A stretch of 6,164 bases of DNA from a virus: IMG/VR virus record IMGVR_UViG_3300045988_002819; one strand, given 5' to 3'. Shown here one piece after another: positions 1 through 6,164 of this stretch (positions within the stretch are counted from its first letter, which is position 1; every line of letters begins with the position of its first letter). The position numbers and the translations under genes are program-made. Under the pieces are notes generated by a model that saw only the letters and a list, made by a program, of their open reading frames with translations, was not told the origin of the DNA and did no database searches.

Positions 1-141
1 TCAATTCTTTCGTACTCTTTCAATTTTTCGCAGATTGCGTTTGCCCATTTATTATTTAAGTTGTACTCTGCCTTCAGTTCGTCTTTGTCATTGCTTCTCC
101 ATCCTTCTTTGTAAAGTGCTGTTGCACAGCTTTCAACTTCA
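1..141. repeat. Terminal redundancy, copy 1 (identical to 6024-6164). It marks a circular 6,023-nt replicon written linearly.
   Basis: Base-by-base comparison of 1-141 with 6024-6164 shows no mismatch. An ORF reads continuously across the implied junction (6023 joined to 1). Confidence 0.97.
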
Positions 142-182
142 TCTGCATAGAAAGTCTTGTCCATGATATAGCTTTTAATCAT
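1..182 (-). CDS. Hypothetical 64-aa protein, 5' portion. The ORF runs off the window start and finishes at 6023-6011 on the circle: MIKSYIMDKTFYADEVESCATALYKEGWRSNDKDELKAEYNLNNKWANAICEKLKEYERIDKND.
   Basis: ATG at 182-180 is preceded by GAGG with a 9-nt spacer. The frame is open to base 1 and continues in frame through the circular junction to TAA at 6013-6011. The ATG overlaps the stop of the upstream ORF (ATGATTAA). It is missing from the supplied ORF track only because the window edge cuts it. Confidence 0.6.
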   Translation of the reverse strand, partial: MIKSYIMDKTFYADEVESCATALYKEGWRSNDKDELKAEYNLNNKWANAICEKLKEYERI

Positions 183-186
183 TTTT
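158..186. repeat. 29-nt exact direct repeat, copy B (tgtccatgatatagcttttaatcattttt). Its partner is at 5994-6022.
   Basis: Exact match read directly. On the minus strand it is AAAAATGATTAAAAGCTATATCATGGACA, i.e. the upstream gene's end (K N D stop) plus the downstream gene's start (MIKSYIMD). Confidence 0.95.
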
Positions 187-440: not shown

Positions 441-469
441 ATTATATCACTTGTCAATAGGTTTTTCAA
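441..469 (-). promoter_or_regulatory. Sigma70-type promoter on the minus strand: -35 TTGAAA (469-464), 17-nt spacer, -10 TATAAT (446-441).
   Basis: The minus strand reads caTTGAAAaacctattgacaagtgaTATAATagagtcaaggaaaagaaaggacg. That is a 6/6 -10, a 5/6 -35 and optimal 17-nt spacing, followed by an SD and an ORF start about 25-35 nt downstream. Confidence 0.7.
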
Positions 470-674
470 TGATTTTGCTGTTTTGTAATATATTTGTAAC
501 CTTCTCTTGCAATCCGGTTTTGCTCCTTTGTTTTGAAAGCGCTTTAGCGCCTTGCCGTGTGTAGCGTAAGCGGAACTCGGCTAATCCATTCATTTTGAGC
601 GCTGTGCGCGTTTTCAACACTTTCAACACTTTCAACAGGTTTTCCACAAAATGTTGCACAAAGGTTTTCGTCAT
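447..674 (-). CDS. Doubtful 75-aa basic ORF. It may be part of the non-coding control region.
   Basis: The frame is open with ATG at 674, but there is no convincing SD. The first ~20 codons are encoded by the TTCAACA iteron array (LLKVLKVLK), and the 3' end contains the promoter. It lies outside the promoter-to-terminator unit that covers every other gene. Confidence 0.3.
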   Translation of the reverse strand: MTKTFVQHFVENLLKVLKVLKTRTALKMNGLAEFRLRYTRQGAKALSKQRSKTGLQEKVTNILQNSKIIEKPIDK

Positions 675-785
675 TTTGACGAACTTTCAACATTTCAACA
701 AGTTTTCAACAAAACTTTCAACAGCGTTTTTTGCTTTTTATTTACGCTTTAGCGTTAAATTTTAGTACTTTTCAACTTTTCCACA
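613..785. repeat. Iteron array. TTCAACA starts at 613, 622, 631, 686, 694, 705 and 717; TTCAACT at 771; the variant TTCCACA at 642 and 779. On the minus strand the motif is TGTTGAA(A).
   Basis: Counted directly. The first three copies are an exact 9-nt tandem (ttcaacact). A given 7-mer is expected about 0.4 times per strand in 6 kb, and here 8-10 copies fall within 173 nt. Confidence 0.85.
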
Positions 786-790
786 TTGCC

Positions 791-805
791 TACTACTACT
801 ACTAC
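791..805. repeat. (TAC)5 trinucleotide microsatellite.
   Basis: tactactactactac read directly, in non-coding sequence between the iterons and the AT-rich core. Confidence 0.9.
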
Positions 806-819
806 AACAAGTTAATATA

Positions 820-872
820 ATATACGCGCGTGTGCGCGTGCGCGTTTACGCGCGTGTGCGCACGTGCGTACA
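820..872. repeat. Two 26-nt perfectly alternating purine-pyrimidine tracts (820-845 and 847-872), rich in CG/TG and sharing the 14-mer acgcgcgtgtgcgc. This is Z-DNA-prone and multiply self-complementary.
   Basis: The R/Y alternation was checked base by base and only T846 interrupts it. Embedded palindromes are acgcgcgt (824-831) and cgcacgtgcg (859-868). The composition contrasts sharply with the rest of the genome. Confidence 0.85.
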
Positions 873-972: not shown

Positions 973-1006
973 TAGCCCAGTACCTTACTTGATAGGTACT
1001 GGGCTA
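973..1006 (-). terminator. 13-bp-stem hairpin (tagcccagtacct / aggtactgggcta, 8-nt loop), 10 nt downstream of the VP4 stop. Candidate intrinsic terminator of the genome-length operon.
   Basis: Perfect inverted repeat. On the minus strand it is followed by TTGTAATTTAAAAG, a U-rich but interrupted tail. Confidence 0.5.
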
Positions 1007-2940: not shown

Positions 2941-4641
2941 TTACAGTTTGTACAAGCCCGGTACGCTGTACAACGGCATACGTCTTGTGGTTTTGTTTGC
3001 TACTCGGATTGCGCCGAAAAATTGTGGTTCATCCTGTACGATTAGAGTGCGTGCAATTTCTTCCTTTCCTTCTGCCATCCATTCCTGTGATAGCGTCGGT
3101 ACTTCTGAATAGTTGTCGGCATAGTGCCAGAAGTCTAGTGTTCCGGTTGCGTTGCTTCTCATGAGGCCTGATACGCGGTTAGGCTTCATGCGGTAGTCTG
3201 CCCATGCTTCTTGATATCCAAACGTCTCTTCATCGCTTGCTCCGCCGGTGAGCATGATTTCTTTATTTTTTACAGGCTGTTCGCCTATATTTGCAAACTG
3301 AGGTACATAGTAGTCTAGCCTGTCCATTCTGCTCCAGAAGCGTTCCAAGCCTTGCTGGTAACTGTGATTGTGTCGCACGCAACATACGCCGATTACGAAG
3401 CCGTGCTCTTCAAACGATTTGGTAAAACTGCTTTCGTTTACCGGCGTTACTGACATTGCGCCAGTTTCGCCGATTGGTGTATCTGTGTTGGTCTGCTGTC
3501 CGCTTGTCTGAACGATTTGATTCATATTGACGTGGTATCTGCCACCGCCTAGGTATTCCGGAATCTGTGCAGTTTTATCGCTGATTACGACATTCCATAG
3601 TGCTTGCACCTGTTCGCGGTAACGGCTGCCGCCTCGTGCTAGTGCTTCGTAGTACTGCTGTACTGCTATGGTTTTTCTCAGGTCGTTGATGGTTGCTGCG
3701 GTTATGCTTCCAAGGTCTGCATACATCCAGCCGCCCGCACCTGTTTCACCGGATGTATTTTCGGTTCCGGTAAATTCCATCTTCTTTTTTTCTCCTGGTT
3801 GTCCTCTTTCTTGTGTATAGATTAGACTTCCGGGCTTGTTCGATGCACTTGTTGACCCCAGTACCATTTCTACCGGTGACGGATAATCTTCGTATTGGTA
3901 ATGGGTATCGCCTAATCTTATAGGTGCGTTACCCTCCATTGGCAGCGTCACTTCCGGCCCACGCTGAGGATACGGTAAGCAGCTGGTAAAGTAGTCATGG
4001 AACTTGTTTACCGGTAAGCAGAATCCTCCTTTGTACGCGTTTAAAAGTCTGATTTCTTCTGTTGCGTCTTCATCTTTTCCGCTTTCTGTTCCTGTTGAAT
4101 ATGTGATGAATTCGCTTTTGCTTGTGTATGTTGCCTGGTTATCTACGTTTTCGTCTCGAAAAAATTCGTTCCAGATTTTCACGTATGCTCTTACCGGCAG
4201 TGCGTTGATATTGAAACTTTTATTGATTTTTGTCGGCACTCCCATGTAATCTAGGATTGTTTTTTCATGCGGTTTATAGTCTCCTTCTGTGCCGCCTATT
4301 AAGATTTGTGGGACTTTATAGGTTTTTGTTGGCATCCACGGTGTGCTTTCGACTTCTCCCATGAAGTATTTGAAGTCGTCCCACAGAATTCTGTTGGGAC
4401 AGTAGAAATAGTAGAAGTCAATAAATGCATCGTCCATTACTGGATATTTCGGCGTTGTCATTCGGATGATTGCTGATGTATTTACGTTGAATGTGTCGCC
4501 CGGTAATACTTCGTCCACGTAAAACGGAATCAGTTTGCCGGAATCAAACGTTGTTAAAATTGTCTGGTCACGGTTGAACCGCGTTCGACTTGCCTTCATT
4601 TTTGGAATTTGGTTGAAGTGCCGTTCATTGTTTCGGTTCAA
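2941..4641 (-). CDS. VP1: Major capsid protein VP1 (F-type jelly-roll capsid protein of Microviridae), 566 aa, TTG start.
   Basis: The N-terminal signature RHFNQIP...SRTRFNRD...TTFDSGKLIPFYVDEVLPGDTF matches remembered gokushovirus VP1 N-termini. Its size and a long Gly/Ser/Thr-rich insertion are typical of the gokushovirus threefold protrusion loop. AAGGAGG lies 7 nt upstream of TTG at 4641. Confidence 0.95.
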   Translation of the reverse strand: MNRNNERHFNQIPKMKASRTRFNRDQTILTTFDSGKLIPFYVDEVLPGDTFNVNTSAIIRMTTPKYPVMDDAFIDFYYFYCPNRILWDDFKYFMGEVESTPWMPTKTYKVPQILIGGTEGDYKPHEKTILDYMGVPTKINKSFNINALPVRAYVKIWNEFFRDENVDNQATYTSKSEFITYSTGTESGKDEDATEEIRLLNAYKGGFCLPVNKFHDYFTSCLPYPQRGPEVTLPMEGNAPIRLGDTHYQYEDYPSPVEMVLGSTSASNKPGSLIYTQERGQPGEKKKMEFTGTENTSGETGAGGWMYADLGSITAATINDLRKTIAVQQYYEALARGGSRYREQVQALWNVVISDKTAQIPEYLGGGRYHVNMNQIVQTSGQQTNTDTPIGETGAMSVTPVNESSFTKSFEEHGFVIGVCCVRHNHSYQQGLERFWSRMDRLDYYVPQFANIGEQPVKNKEIMLTGGASDEETFGYQEAWADYRMKPNRVSGLMRSNATGTLDFWHYADNYSEVPTLSQEWMAEGKEEIARTLIVQDEPQFFGAIRVANKTTRRMPLYSVPGLYKL

Positions 4642-5628: not shown

Positions 5629-6018
5629 TTATACCCCCTTTCTGTATTTTTTTGTGCGTGTGTCGATGTGTACCCACGTGCTATATACGATAATGCCGCA
5701 TTCATTCGGGATGATTTCATTCAGTTTGTTGGCAATTTCTTTTGCACTCATTCCGTTTATTCGAATGTCTGCGGCCATACCGCGCATATGGTATGAGTAT
5801 TTTGCACCGCCTACCGCTTTATTCCTTGTCGGTGTTCGGTATCCGCTGTTTATGATTACAGGTTTTCCGACTCTGTTTCTGAGGATGTCTAGGATTGACA
5901 CTAGGTAGCTGTCTATAAAAACTACCTGTGAACCGTCTTTGCAAGCAAATTCCTTTACTTTGAAGTGCTGTCCTACTTTTTCGTTTGCGTCTGTGTCCAT
6001 GATATAGCTTTTAATCAT
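5629..6018 (-). CDS. Zinc D,D-/L,D-peptidase-type peptidoglycan hydrolase (Peptidase_M15_3 / M15A-like, LAS-fold), 129 aa. Candidate endolysin.
   Basis: FKVKEFACKDG ... INSGYRTPTRNKAVGGAKYSYHMRGMAADI ... WVHIDTR gives the SxHxxGxAxD (H-x6-D) plus distal H zinc-ligand pattern of this family. I place the start at ATG 6018; the ORF track uses TTG 6027. The ATG overlaps the stop of the 64-aa ORF. Confidence 0.85.
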   Translation of the reverse strand: MIKSYIMDTDANEKVGQHFKVKEFACKDGSQVVFIDSYLVSILDILRNRVGKPVIINSGYRTPTRNKAVGGAKYSYHMRGMAADIRINGMSAKEIANKLNEIIPNECGIIVYSTWVHIDTRTKKYRKGV

Positions 6019-6022
6019 TTTT
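5994..6022. repeat. 29-nt exact direct repeat, copy A. Its partner is at 158-186, 187 nt away on the circle.
   Basis: Exact match read directly. It spans the stop of the 64-aa ORF and the first 8 codons of the peptidase gene. Confidence 0.95.
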
Positions 6023-6164
6023 GTCAATTCTTTCGTACTCTTTCAATTTTTCGCAGATTGCGTTTGCCCATTTATTATTTAAGTTGTACTCTGCCTTCAG
6101 TTCGTCTTTGTCATTGCTTCTCCATCCTTCTTTGTAAAGTGCTGTTGCACAGCTTTCAACTTCA
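6011..6164 (-). CDS. The same 64-aa hypothetical ORF, 3' portion plus the redundant copy. It is 5'-truncated by the window end.
   Basis: 6024-6164 duplicates 1-141. The reading frame continues ...EYERIDKND then TAA at 6013-6011, which overlaps the ATG (6018-6016) of the peptidase gene. Confidence 0.6.
   Translation of the reverse strand, partial: EVESCATALYKEGWRSNDKDELKAEYNLNNKWANAICEKLKEYERIDKND
6024..6164. repeat. Terminal redundancy, copy 2 (identical to 1-141).
   Basis: Same comparison as above. The 141-nt length equals the default largest k-mer of a common metagenome assembler, which suggests an assembly overlap of a circular contig rather than a biological repeat (inference). Confidence 0.97.

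What the first reader, a model, noticed from the sequence alone, without database searches (positions are those of the whole stretch)
613..785. Dense array of about ten TTCAACA iterons straddling the start of the doubtful 75-aa ORF
There are seven exact TTCAACA copies, one TTCAACT and two TTCCACA within 173 nt, all in the same orientation. They form two clusters (613-648 and 686-723) plus an outlying pair (771-785), and the first three copies are an exact 9-nt tandem. On the coding strand each reads TGTTGAAA, which contains the -35-like hexamer TTGAAA. The same hexamer serves as the -35 of the real promoter 150 nt downstream. Possible roles are binding sites for VP4 or a phage or host regulator (iteron-like origin control), a sigma-factor or RNAP sink, or a structural packaging signal. 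I do not know of iteron arrays described for gokushoviruses.
Basis: seen in the sequence. Interest (0 to 1): 0.65.

Follow-up and report, generated by a model that had tools for sequence, protein, structure and literature searches.

The report
Host-origin DnaA boxes in a gokushovirus
The repeated TTCAACA motifs are most likely binding sites for the host replication initiator DnaA, part of a ~230-bp copy-like version of a gut Clostridia chromosome origin carried by a tiny single-stranded DNA phage, which suggests the phage uses DnaA and points to its host.

Summary
Seven exact TTCAACA, one TTCAACT and two TTCCACA lie co-oriented in 613-785, against 1.25 exact copies expected in the whole window. 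They are not phage-specific iterons. The proximal pair (769-785) is followed by a 4-nt spacer, five perfect CTA trinucleotides (790-804; 5'-TAG-3' on the gene strand, the DnaA-trio consensus) and an AT-rich stretch. This is the architecture of the bacterial origin basal unwinding system (BUS). The same boxes, spacer, trios and AT-rich run occur between dnaA and dnaN in four Oscillospiraceae/Ruminococcus/Clostridiales genomes, and host and phage box logos match. The module is present in at least 174 gokushovirus genomes whose VP4 is only 37-100% identical. It occurs in either orientation relative to the genes. The 75-aa ORF over it is not conserved. Best reading: host-type DnaA boxes in a captured or mimicked oriC module that recruits DnaA to the double-stranded replicative form and opens the duplex. 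What the opening then feeds (helicase loading, help for VP4, or mainly DnaA titration) is inferred, not shown. I found no paper linking DnaA to microviruses. The module also predicts an Oscillospirales-like host, tentatively.

The parts
611..648 (+). Distal box cluster A. Four co-oriented DnaA-box-like 9-mers: TTTTCAACA 611-619, CTTTCAACA 620-628, CTTTCAACA 629-637, TTTTCCACA 640-648.
   Evidence: The layout is conserved in relatives. The box logo matches host oriC boxes.
652..660 (-). Degenerate inverted box TGTTGCACA. It aligns with an inverted TGTTGAAAA box of the host oriC in L269.
   Evidence: alignment of window 610-723 to the L269 dnaA-dnaN spacer; sequence.
667..683 (.). Inverted repeat TTCGTCA-TTT-TGACGAA between the two distal clusters. 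The ATG of the doubtful 75-aa ORF lies inside it.
   Evidence: I9, D4. It is conserved in relatives. TGACGAA is also present in host oriC spacers. Its function is unknown.
684..723 (+). Distal box cluster B. Four co-oriented boxes: CTTTCAACA 684-692, ATTTCAACA 692-700, TTTTCAACA 703-711, CTTTCAACA 715-723.
   Evidence: conserved in relatives.
744..755 (.). Short hairpin ACGCT-TT-AGCGT between the distal boxes and the proximal box pair.
   Evidence: (D12) and the fold. An AACGTT-type element is kept at this position in all VP4 classes. Its role is unknown.
769..785 (+). Proximal co-oriented box pair of the BUS-like core: TTTTCAACT 769-777 and TTTTCCACA 777-785.
   Evidence: These positions are about 90-100% conserved in 174 genomes. 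The arrangement matches host oriC.
786..789 (+). 4-nt spacer (TTGC) between the proximal box and the first trio. Hosts have TACC or CCCC here.
   Evidence: The BUS description gives a spacer of about 4 bp (PMC8287927).
790..804 (-). Five DnaA-trios. They read 5'-TAG-3' x5 on the minus (gene) strand, which is 3'-GAT-5', the DnaA-trio consensus. On the + strand they read CTA x5.
   Evidence: (790-805, period 3, 100%). The three trios nearest the boxes are invariant in relatives. Consensus from PMC8287927 and PMC10721633.
805..824 (.). CAACAAGTT plus the AT-rich run AATATAATATA, the candidate unwinding element. CAACAAG is phage-specific and absent from host origins.
   Evidence: An array-only scan of IMG/VR still finds CAACAAGT or CAACAAAT after the trios.
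825..870 (.). GC-rich (CG/CA)n imperfect palindrome bounding the AT-rich stretch. It is not part of the host-like module.
   Evidence: (I1, D1). Its composition is conserved but its sequence is not. It is absent in L056.
447..674 (-). 75-aa ORF whose N-terminal codons are the boxes read in frame. I judge it not to be a gene.
   Evidence: No Pfam hit. The downstream open length varies from 66 to 534 nt. 73 of 144 same-orientation genomes lack the downstream anchor, and genomes with the inverted block lose the N-terminus.

Best explanation
The ten repeats are host-type DnaA boxes. They are the lineage variant TTTTCAACA/TTTTCCACA of the TTATCCACA consensus. Together with a 4-nt spacer, five 5'-TAG-3' DnaA-trios and an AT-rich stretch, they form a compact (~230 bp, 611-824) version of the dnaA-dnaN origin of Oscillospirales-type Clostridia. 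On the double-stranded replicative form, host DnaA binds the co-oriented boxes. Guided by the proximal pair, it oligomerises onto the trios of the gene strand and melts the adjacent AT-rich DNA. This gives the phage a DnaA-dependent entry point for host replication machinery. Shown here: the anatomy, its match to real host origins, its conservation independent of VP4, and its non-coding status. Inferred: DnaA binding and duplex opening. Open: whether the opening loads the host helicase for theta-type amplification or plasmid-like carriage of the replicative form, or exposes single-stranded DNA for the VP4 nuclease.
For: Host match. A genome-collection scan for three spaced TTCAACA returned four Oscillospiraceae, Ruminococcus or Clostridiales contigs. 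In these, dense TTCAACA/TTCCACA clusters lie between genes with Bac_DnaA plus Bac_DnaA_C domains (E 1e-63 to 5e-70) and DNA_pol3_beta domains, and one also has rnpA upstream. Each host cluster ends in box-box-4 nt-CTACTACTAC...-AT-rich. An example is TTCCACAGTTTCAACA-TACC-CTACTACTACTACTAAC-TATATA. The phage has TTCAACTTTTCCACA-TTGC-CTACTACTACTACTAC-AACAAGTTAATATAATATA.

Box logos. They match, including the A/C ratio at box position 6 (host 84/16, phage 88/12) and the flanks. Both show strong co-orientation: host 67 forward to 14 reverse, phage 7.8 to 0.17 per block. Canonical TTATCCACA is nearly absent from these host origins, 0-1 per origin. Window 610-723 aligns at 72% over 123 columns to the L269 origin, including an inverted box and TGACGAA.

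Fit to the published definition. The BUS is defined as a co-oriented box pair, a ~4-bp spacer and at least 3 trios of consensus 3'-GAT-5' (PMC8287927, PMC10721633). TT(T/A)TCAACA has been proposed as a DnaA-box consensus in mollicutes (PMC3322544).

Conservation. The module is present in 174 distinct gokushovirus genomes with VP4 37-100% and VP1 37-100% identical to the window. The box pair, spacer length and proximal trios are about 90-100% conserved in every VP4 class. An array-only scan recovers further microviruses, all with trios. L150 keeps only the core of two boxes, trios and AT-rich run.
Against: No experiment shows DnaA binding or unwinding here, and DnaA boxes of Oscillospirales have not been characterised. 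Rolling-circle microviruses have no known need for DnaA. The cultured gokushoviruses SpV4 and phiMH2K lack any such module. The AT-rich stretch is short (~20 nt) and abuts a GC-rich palindrome. The block occurs in both orientations with no change in coding-strand A>T skew. This argues that it does not carry the strand-defining VP4 nick site and leaves its step in the life cycle open. A pure DnaA sink would also explain many co-oriented boxes. The genome scan stopped at 120 rows, so the taxonomic spread of TTCAACA-type origins, and hence the host call, is not established. The 24-nt pattern used forces conservation of the trios in that subset. Unbiased support comes only from the VP4-based set (74 of 80 carry AACTTGTTGTAG) and.
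Confidence: 0.6

Rival explanations
1. DnaA sponge. The boxes bind host DnaA, but the selected function is titration. Many copies of the replicative form, each with about ten boxes, would drain DnaA. This would block host chromosome initiation or reset DnaA-controlled genes, as plasmids carrying Bacillus incC do. No phage replication would start there.
For: The same evidence shows the repeats are host-type DnaA boxes. Function independent of orientation and position fits a sink. Plasmids carrying the B. subtilis dnaA-dnaN region inhibit chromosomal initiation (PMC6669920).
Against: A sink needs neither trios, nor a fixed 4-nt spacer, nor an AT-rich stretch, yet these are the most conserved parts. 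L150 keeps only that core and has lost the distal boxes.
Confidence: 0.2
2. DnaA acts as a transcription factor. The boxes let host DnaA-ATP level (growth state) switch phage promoters on or off.
For: In the window the array lies about 150 nt upstream of the promoter-like site 469-441. DnaA is known to regulate transcription through box clusters (PMC8203912, listed).
Against: The block changes position (after VP4, or between VP2 and VP4) and orientation between clades. No promoter-like site lies inside it. The trios are unexplained.
Confidence: 0.07
3. Phage iterons. The repeats are binding sites for VP4 or a small phage DNA-binding protein, like the bind locus of rolling-circle plasmids or the iterons of CRESS-DNA viruses.
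For: The direct repeats lie in the main non-coding region next to the VP4 gene. CAACAAGTT next to the trios is phage-specific.
Against: The repeat sequence does not co-vary with VP4 across 37-100% identity, whereas the post-VP4 hairpin does. The repeats are identical to host oriC boxes. The small ORFs next to the block are not conserved across clades.
Confidence: 0.05
4. Spo0A (0A-box) sites. TGTTGAA is one mismatch from TGTCGAA, so the array would let a sporulating host silence the phage, as in phi29.
For: The motif resemblance, and the TGACGAA inverted repeat at 667-683. Both rest on my memory of the 0A-box consensus and were not tested.
Against: The box logo never shows C at the diagnostic position. 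The same boxes fill host dnaA-dnaN spacers and are followed by DnaA-trios.
Confidence: 0.03
5. The repeats are coding sequence of the 75-aa ORF, or promoter -35 decoys.
For: An ORF spans 447-674 on the minus strand. TTGAAA resembles a -35 hexamer.
Against: The ORF length and its presence are not conserved, and it is destroyed in genomes with the inverted block. It has no Pfam hit. No -10 partner exists for any array copy.
Confidence: 0.02

Closest known systems
[quoted passage not shown]
   Same: It shares the co-oriented box pair, a ~4-nt spacer, at least 3 (here 5) trios of consensus 3'-GAT-5', an adjacent AT-rich DNA stretch and further upstream co-oriented boxes. The layout is nearly superimposable on the dnaA-dnaN origins of four Oscillospirales genomes.
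   Different: It sits in a 6-kb single-stranded DNA rolling-circle phage, not next to dnaA. It is compact. It carries a phage-specific CAACAAGTT between the trios and the AT-rich run, and it is bounded by a GC-rich palindrome. Its activity is untested.
Plasmid and phage origins that use host DnaA boxes as accessory sites (P1 oriR, F, pSC101, RK2; from my own knowledge)
   Same: In both, a mobile element recruits host DnaA through boxes in its origin.
   Different: Those origins have one to a few boxes flanking the element's own iterons and depend on their own Rep for melting. Here there are no separate phage iterons, and the chromosomal box-plus-trio unwinding core is present.
DnaA-titrating loci (E. 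coli datA, B. subtilis DnaA-box clusters, incC incompatibility)
   Same: Each is a cluster of DnaA boxes able to sequester DnaA. incC on plasmids inhibits chromosome initiation.
   Different: Titration loci lack trios and an unwinding element.
Iterons / bind locus of rolling-circle replicons (pMV158 RepB; CRESS-DNA virus Rep iterons)
   Same: They are short direct repeats near the origin of a rolling-circle replicon.
   Different: Those repeats are specific to, and co-evolve with, the element's own Rep. Here the repeats are invariant across VP4 at 37-100% identity and equal host boxes.

Membership tests
oriC basal unwinding system (BUS) | A DnaA box (at most 2 mismatches to the consensus or to the species-specific motif) within 0-16 bp of the trios | tested here: met
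   TTTTCCACA at 777-785 has 1 mismatch to TTATCCACA and ends 4 nt before the first trio. Rule taken from PMC8287927.
oriC basal unwinding system (BUS) | A second, co-oriented box immediately upstream (at most 3 bp between the boxes) | tested here: met
   TTTTCAACT at 769-777 is co-oriented and abuts the proximal box. It has 1 mismatch to the host-type TTTTCAACA.
oriC basal unwinding system (BUS) | At least three consecutive trios with a central A (consensus 3'-GAT-5') on one strand | tested here: met
   Five perfect 5'-TAG-3' on the minus strand, 790-804. The three nearest the boxes are invariant in relatives.
oriC basal unwinding system (BUS) | The same element is present in the cognate host chromosome origin next to dnaA | tested here: met
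   Four Oscillospirales dnaA-dnaN spacers carry the same boxes, 4-nt spacer, CTA trios and AT-rich run. The host assignment itself is inferred.
oriC basal unwinding system (BUS) | Located at the chromosomal origin | tested here: not met
   The element lies in a circular 6023-nt gokushovirus genome with no dnaA. I therefore file it as a BUS-like module of a virus, not as an oriC.
oriC basal unwinding system (BUS) | DnaA-ATP-dependent strand separation that requires both boxes and trios | not testable with these tools
   This needs purified host DnaA and a strand-separation assay.
Replicon-specific iterons (bound by the element's own initiator) | The repeat sequence co-varies with the initiator protein | tested here: not met
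   The motif and layout are the same with VP4 at 37, 45, 56, 80 and 100% identity. A different element, the post-VP4 hairpin, tracks the VP4 clade.
Sigma-70-type promoter (-35 element) | A -35 hexamer with a -10 hexamer 16-18 nt downstream | tested here: not met
   The only promoter-like site on the minus strand near the array is 469-441, outside it.
Protein-coding gene (75-aa ORF) | The reading frame and its length are conserved among relatives | tested here: not met
   Variable stop position, missing downstream part in 73 of 144 genomes, disrupted by block inversion, and no family hit.
DnaA titration locus (datA-like) | A cluster of DnaA boxes able to sequester DnaA, with no unwinding element required | tested here: inconclusive
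   The box cluster is present, but so are trios and an AT-rich run. Sequestration cannot be tested here.

The most novel reading that the evidence does not exclude
A large, globally distributed group of mammalian-gut gokushoviruses has captured the complete DnaA-box, DnaA-trio and unwinding core of its Clostridia host's chromosome origin. It fires this core with host DnaA. A rolling-circle ssDNA phage would then also replicate, or persist, as a natural oriC minichromosome tied to the host cell cycle. The box variant carried by such phages would reveal their otherwise unknown Gram-positive-type hosts.
Probability: 0.4. Interest if true: 0.9.

Novelty: new variant of a known kind. Interest (0 to 1): 0.8.

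Why it matters
Three reasons.

1. Mechanism. DnaA-box plus DnaA-trio unwinding modules are regarded as a hallmark of bacterial chromosomes. Finding one under strong selection in a 6-kb rolling-circle ssDNA phage would add a DnaA-dependent step to microvirus replication, persistence or host takeover. None of these is currently described.

2. Host prediction. Hosts of the abundant gut gokushoviruses are largely unknown, and few microviruses have been tied to Gram-positive lineages (PMC9239249). An origin mimic that must match the host's DnaA specificity is a sequence-only host marker. Here it points to Oscillospiraceae or Ruminococcaceae-like bacteria.

3. Origin biology. It gives a natural, minimal and evolutionarily replicated origin (more than 170 variants). 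Which boxes, spacings and trios are indispensable can be read from it for a group of bacteria whose replication origins are unstudied.

Tried and rejected
- Pfam on the 75-aa and 80-aa ORFs gave no family.
- Rfam on 380-1060, both strands, gave only sub-threshold chance hits.
- Single-strand DNA folding of the non-coding region shows strong hairpins at 973-1006, 902-928 and in the GC-rich palindrome, but the repeat array itself is unstructured. I therefore dropped a structural or packaging-signal reading.
- I considered AACTTG (minus strand 808-813) as a phiX174-like VP4 nick site (resemblance to CAACTTG, from memory). The block is inverted in several clades without any change of coding-strand skew, so I do not claim it.
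- Test of the refutation criterion 'relatives lacking the repeats'. L012 lacks them but is an 8.8-kb contig whose sequence after the VP4 hairpin is unrelated DNA, probably chimeric. L021 and L074 are truncated contigs. L150 keeps the core only.
- Cultured gokushoviruses SpV4 and phiMH2K have no module.
- A scan for canonical-box BUS (TTATCCACA...CTACTACTA) in IMG/VR returned mostly long non-microvirus contigs and one microvirus with a different, hairpin-type arrangement. The module is therefore not general to Microviridae.
- Among the 120 genome hits, Bacteroidales and other contigs had TTCAACA triplets but no trios and no dnaA. I treated them as unrelated.
- Literature searches for iterons or DnaA in Microviridae found nothing relevant.

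Full report
CONTEXT. The window is a circular gokushovirus genome of 6023 nt; bases 1-141 repeat at 6024-6164. All genes are on the minus strand. They are VP4 at 1017-2036 (REP_ORF2-G2P), VP2 at 2033-2902, VP1 at 2941-4641 (Phage_F, E 8e-137), a Chlamy_scaf scaffold protein, VP5 and an M15 peptidase. The finding lies in the ~600-nt non-coding region (418-1016) that follows VP4.

OBSERVATION. It is correct. Seven exact TTCAACA lie at 613-723 on the + strand, against 1.25 expected in the whole window, and 0 of 200 shuffles reach 8. TTCAACT lies at 771-777 and TTCCACA at 642-648 and 779-785. The first three copies form an exact 9-nt tandem. All ten are co-oriented. Directly after it come TTGC, then (CTA)5 at 790-804, then CAACAAGTT and AATATAATATA. 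The combined pattern TTCMACA-N4-CTACTACTAC has 0.00 expected matches.

CONSERVATION. GenBank relatives at 76-86% DNA identity keep the array in the same 4+4+2 layout. Of 80 IMG/VR genomes found through VP4 alone, nearly all carry 7-10 copies, and 74 carry the adjacent AACTTGTTGTAG.

A scan with the trio-containing pattern brought in many more genomes. An independent array-only scan did the same. In total I examined 174 distinct blocks. Their genomes have VP4 37-100% and VP1 37-100% identical to the window. Every VP4 class keeps the box pair, a 3-4-nt spacer, three invariant proximal trios and an AT-rich run.

The non-coding module is therefore far better conserved than the proteins and does not co-vary with VP4. 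By contrast, the hairpin after the VP4 stop codon (973-1006) is found only where VP4 is at least 70% identical.

The block is inverted relative to the genes in 29 of 173 genomes. The inverted set comprises the whole ~38% VP4 clade, 7 genomes of the close clade and KT264801. Its position also differs between clades: after VP4, or between VP2 and VP4. The 75-aa ORF is not conserved in length or presence and is destroyed by the inversion. It has no family hit.

IDENTITY. Among the hits were four gut or rumen Oscillospiraceae, Ruminococcus or Clostridiales contigs with 8-29 such boxes in one spacer.

Pfam shows that the spacer lies between dnaA (Bac_DnaA, Bac_DnaA_C) and dnaN (three DNA_pol3_beta domains), with rnpA upstream in one contig. 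This is the classical Firmicute chromosomal origin. The four DnaA proteins are only 48-55% identical to one another, so the box type is shared by diverse lineages.

Each origin ends in two co-oriented boxes, a 4-nt C-rich spacer, CTA trios and an AT-rich run. The phage has the same order, orientation and spacing.

Position-by-position box logos agree between host (81 boxes) and phage (1360 boxes). The agreement includes the A/C mix at box position 6 and the flanking bases. Both sets are strongly co-oriented. Canonical TTATCCACA is almost absent from these host origins. Part of the phage block aligns to one host origin at 72% over 123 columns, including an inverted box and a TGACGAA element.

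The published basal unwinding system is defined by a co-oriented DnaA-box pair, a ~4-bp spacer and at least 3 DnaA-trios of consensus 3'-GAT-5' (PMC8287927, PMC10721633, PMC6669920). The phage meets each sequence criterion. TT(T/A)TCAACA has already been proposed as a DnaA-box variant, in mollicutes (PMC3322544).

MECHANISM. The steps below differ in how well they are supported.

- Shown: the array is a conserved, non-coding, host-origin-like DnaA-box cluster with an adjacent trio and AT-rich core.
- Inferred from the established BUS mechanism: on double-stranded replicative-form DNA, DnaA binds the boxes. The proximal pair directs a DnaA-ATP oligomer onto the TAG trios of the gene strand, and the neighbouring AT-rich DNA opens.
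- Undetermined: what the opening serves. The options are host helicase loading (theta-type amplification or plasmid-like carriage of the replicative form), exposure of single-stranded DNA for the VP4 HUH nuclease, or chiefly DnaA titration.

Selection on the spacer, trios and AT-rich run argues for opening rather than titration alone. So does L150, which keeps only that core.

Coding-strand A>T skew is the same whether the block is direct or inverted. This argues that the block does not carry the strand-defining nick site. I therefore favour helicase loading or replicative-form maintenance over VP4 assistance, with low certainty.

LIMITS. None of this has been tested by experiment. The host call rests on four metagenome-assembled origins from a truncated scan. 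Other lineages such as mollicutes may share the box type. SpV4 and phiMH2K lack the module, and canonical-box versions are not common in microviruses. This is therefore a feature of one large gut-associated group, not of the family.

NOVELTY. Searches of the open literature found no report of iterons, DnaA boxes or DnaA-trios in Microviridae. DnaA boxes as accessory sites in plasmid and phage origins are known. A chromosomal-type box-plus-trio unwinding core in a virus appears not to be. I rate it a new variant of a known kind, with high interest.

Noticed in passing
window 611-824 versus relatives L009, L014, L048, L056, L065, L069, L073, L405 and the ~38% VP4 clade: The whole box-trio block is inverted relative to the genes in several independent clades, and it sits between VP2 and VP4 in one clade. 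Inverted-type blocks share their own sequence variants, so these look like old recombination events rather than an active switch.
   Followed up: partly
window 823-870: A 48-nt alternating (CG/CA)n imperfect palindrome lies directly next to the AT-rich stretch. Its composition and palindromic nature are conserved in relatives but its sequence is not, and it is missing in L056. It could be a cruciform, a Z-DNA-prone element or a complementary-strand origin.
   Followed up: partly
window 973-1006 (minus strand): A perfect 13-bp hairpin with a conserved 8-nt loop (ATCAAGTA) lies right after the VP4 stop codon. It is present only in genomes with VP4 at least 70% identical and always in the same orientation. 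It is a terminator-like site, or a candidate VP4-specific origin or nick hairpin.
   Followed up: partly
window 667-683: The inverted repeat TTCGTCA-TTT-TGACGAA lies between the two distal box clusters. TGACGAA also occurs in the host dnaA-dnaN spacers L269, L237 and L220. It fits the relaxed Spo0A 0A-box TGNCGAA as I remember it, which I did not verify.
   Followed up: no
window 540-610: A conserved ~70-nt GC-rich element (ACGCGCACAGCGC...GGATTAGCCGAG...GGCGCTAAAGCGC) lies downstream of the array. It is present in 99 of 174 genomes and contains small hairpins. It has no Rfam match and its function is unknown.
   Followed up: partly
window 161-185 and 5999-6023: An identical 25-nt stretch (catgatatagcttttaatcattttt) occurs at both places. 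As a result, two different minus-strand ORFs, the M15 peptidase and a ~64-aa ORF crossing the window ends, start with the same residues MIKSYIMD. This looks like a duplicated gene-start or recombination module.
   Followed up: no
window 1-141 and 6024-6164: There is an exact 141-nt terminal redundancy. The window is a circularly permuted complete genome of 6023 nt.
   Followed up: yes
L483:566-591 (IMG/VR microvirus, VP1 37% identical): The hairpin GTTATCCACAGGGC-ATGTCTACTACTA-GCCCTGTGGGTAAC places a canonical DnaA box in a stem. This resembles the DnaA-dependent primosome assembly hairpins of some plasmids (from memory). It would be a second, different way for a microvirus to use DnaA.
   Followed up: no
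L311:2749 and reverse strand 5188 (Mesoaciditoga sp. contig): TTCAACA box pairs followed by CTA trios occur in a palindromic arrangement in a Thermotogota genome. No dnaA was detected in the 8 kb held. The box-plus-trio type is therefore not confined to Clostridia.
   Followed up: no
L017 (10.7-kb IMG/VR contig): One contig holds two different microvirus genomes, each with its own box-trio block, in opposite orientations. It is either a co-assembly or a natural heterodimer.
   Followed up: no
L150:5196 onward: This relative keeps only the core (two boxes, trios, AT-rich run), has lost both distal clusters and carries a canonical TGTGGATAA box nearby.
   Followed up: partly
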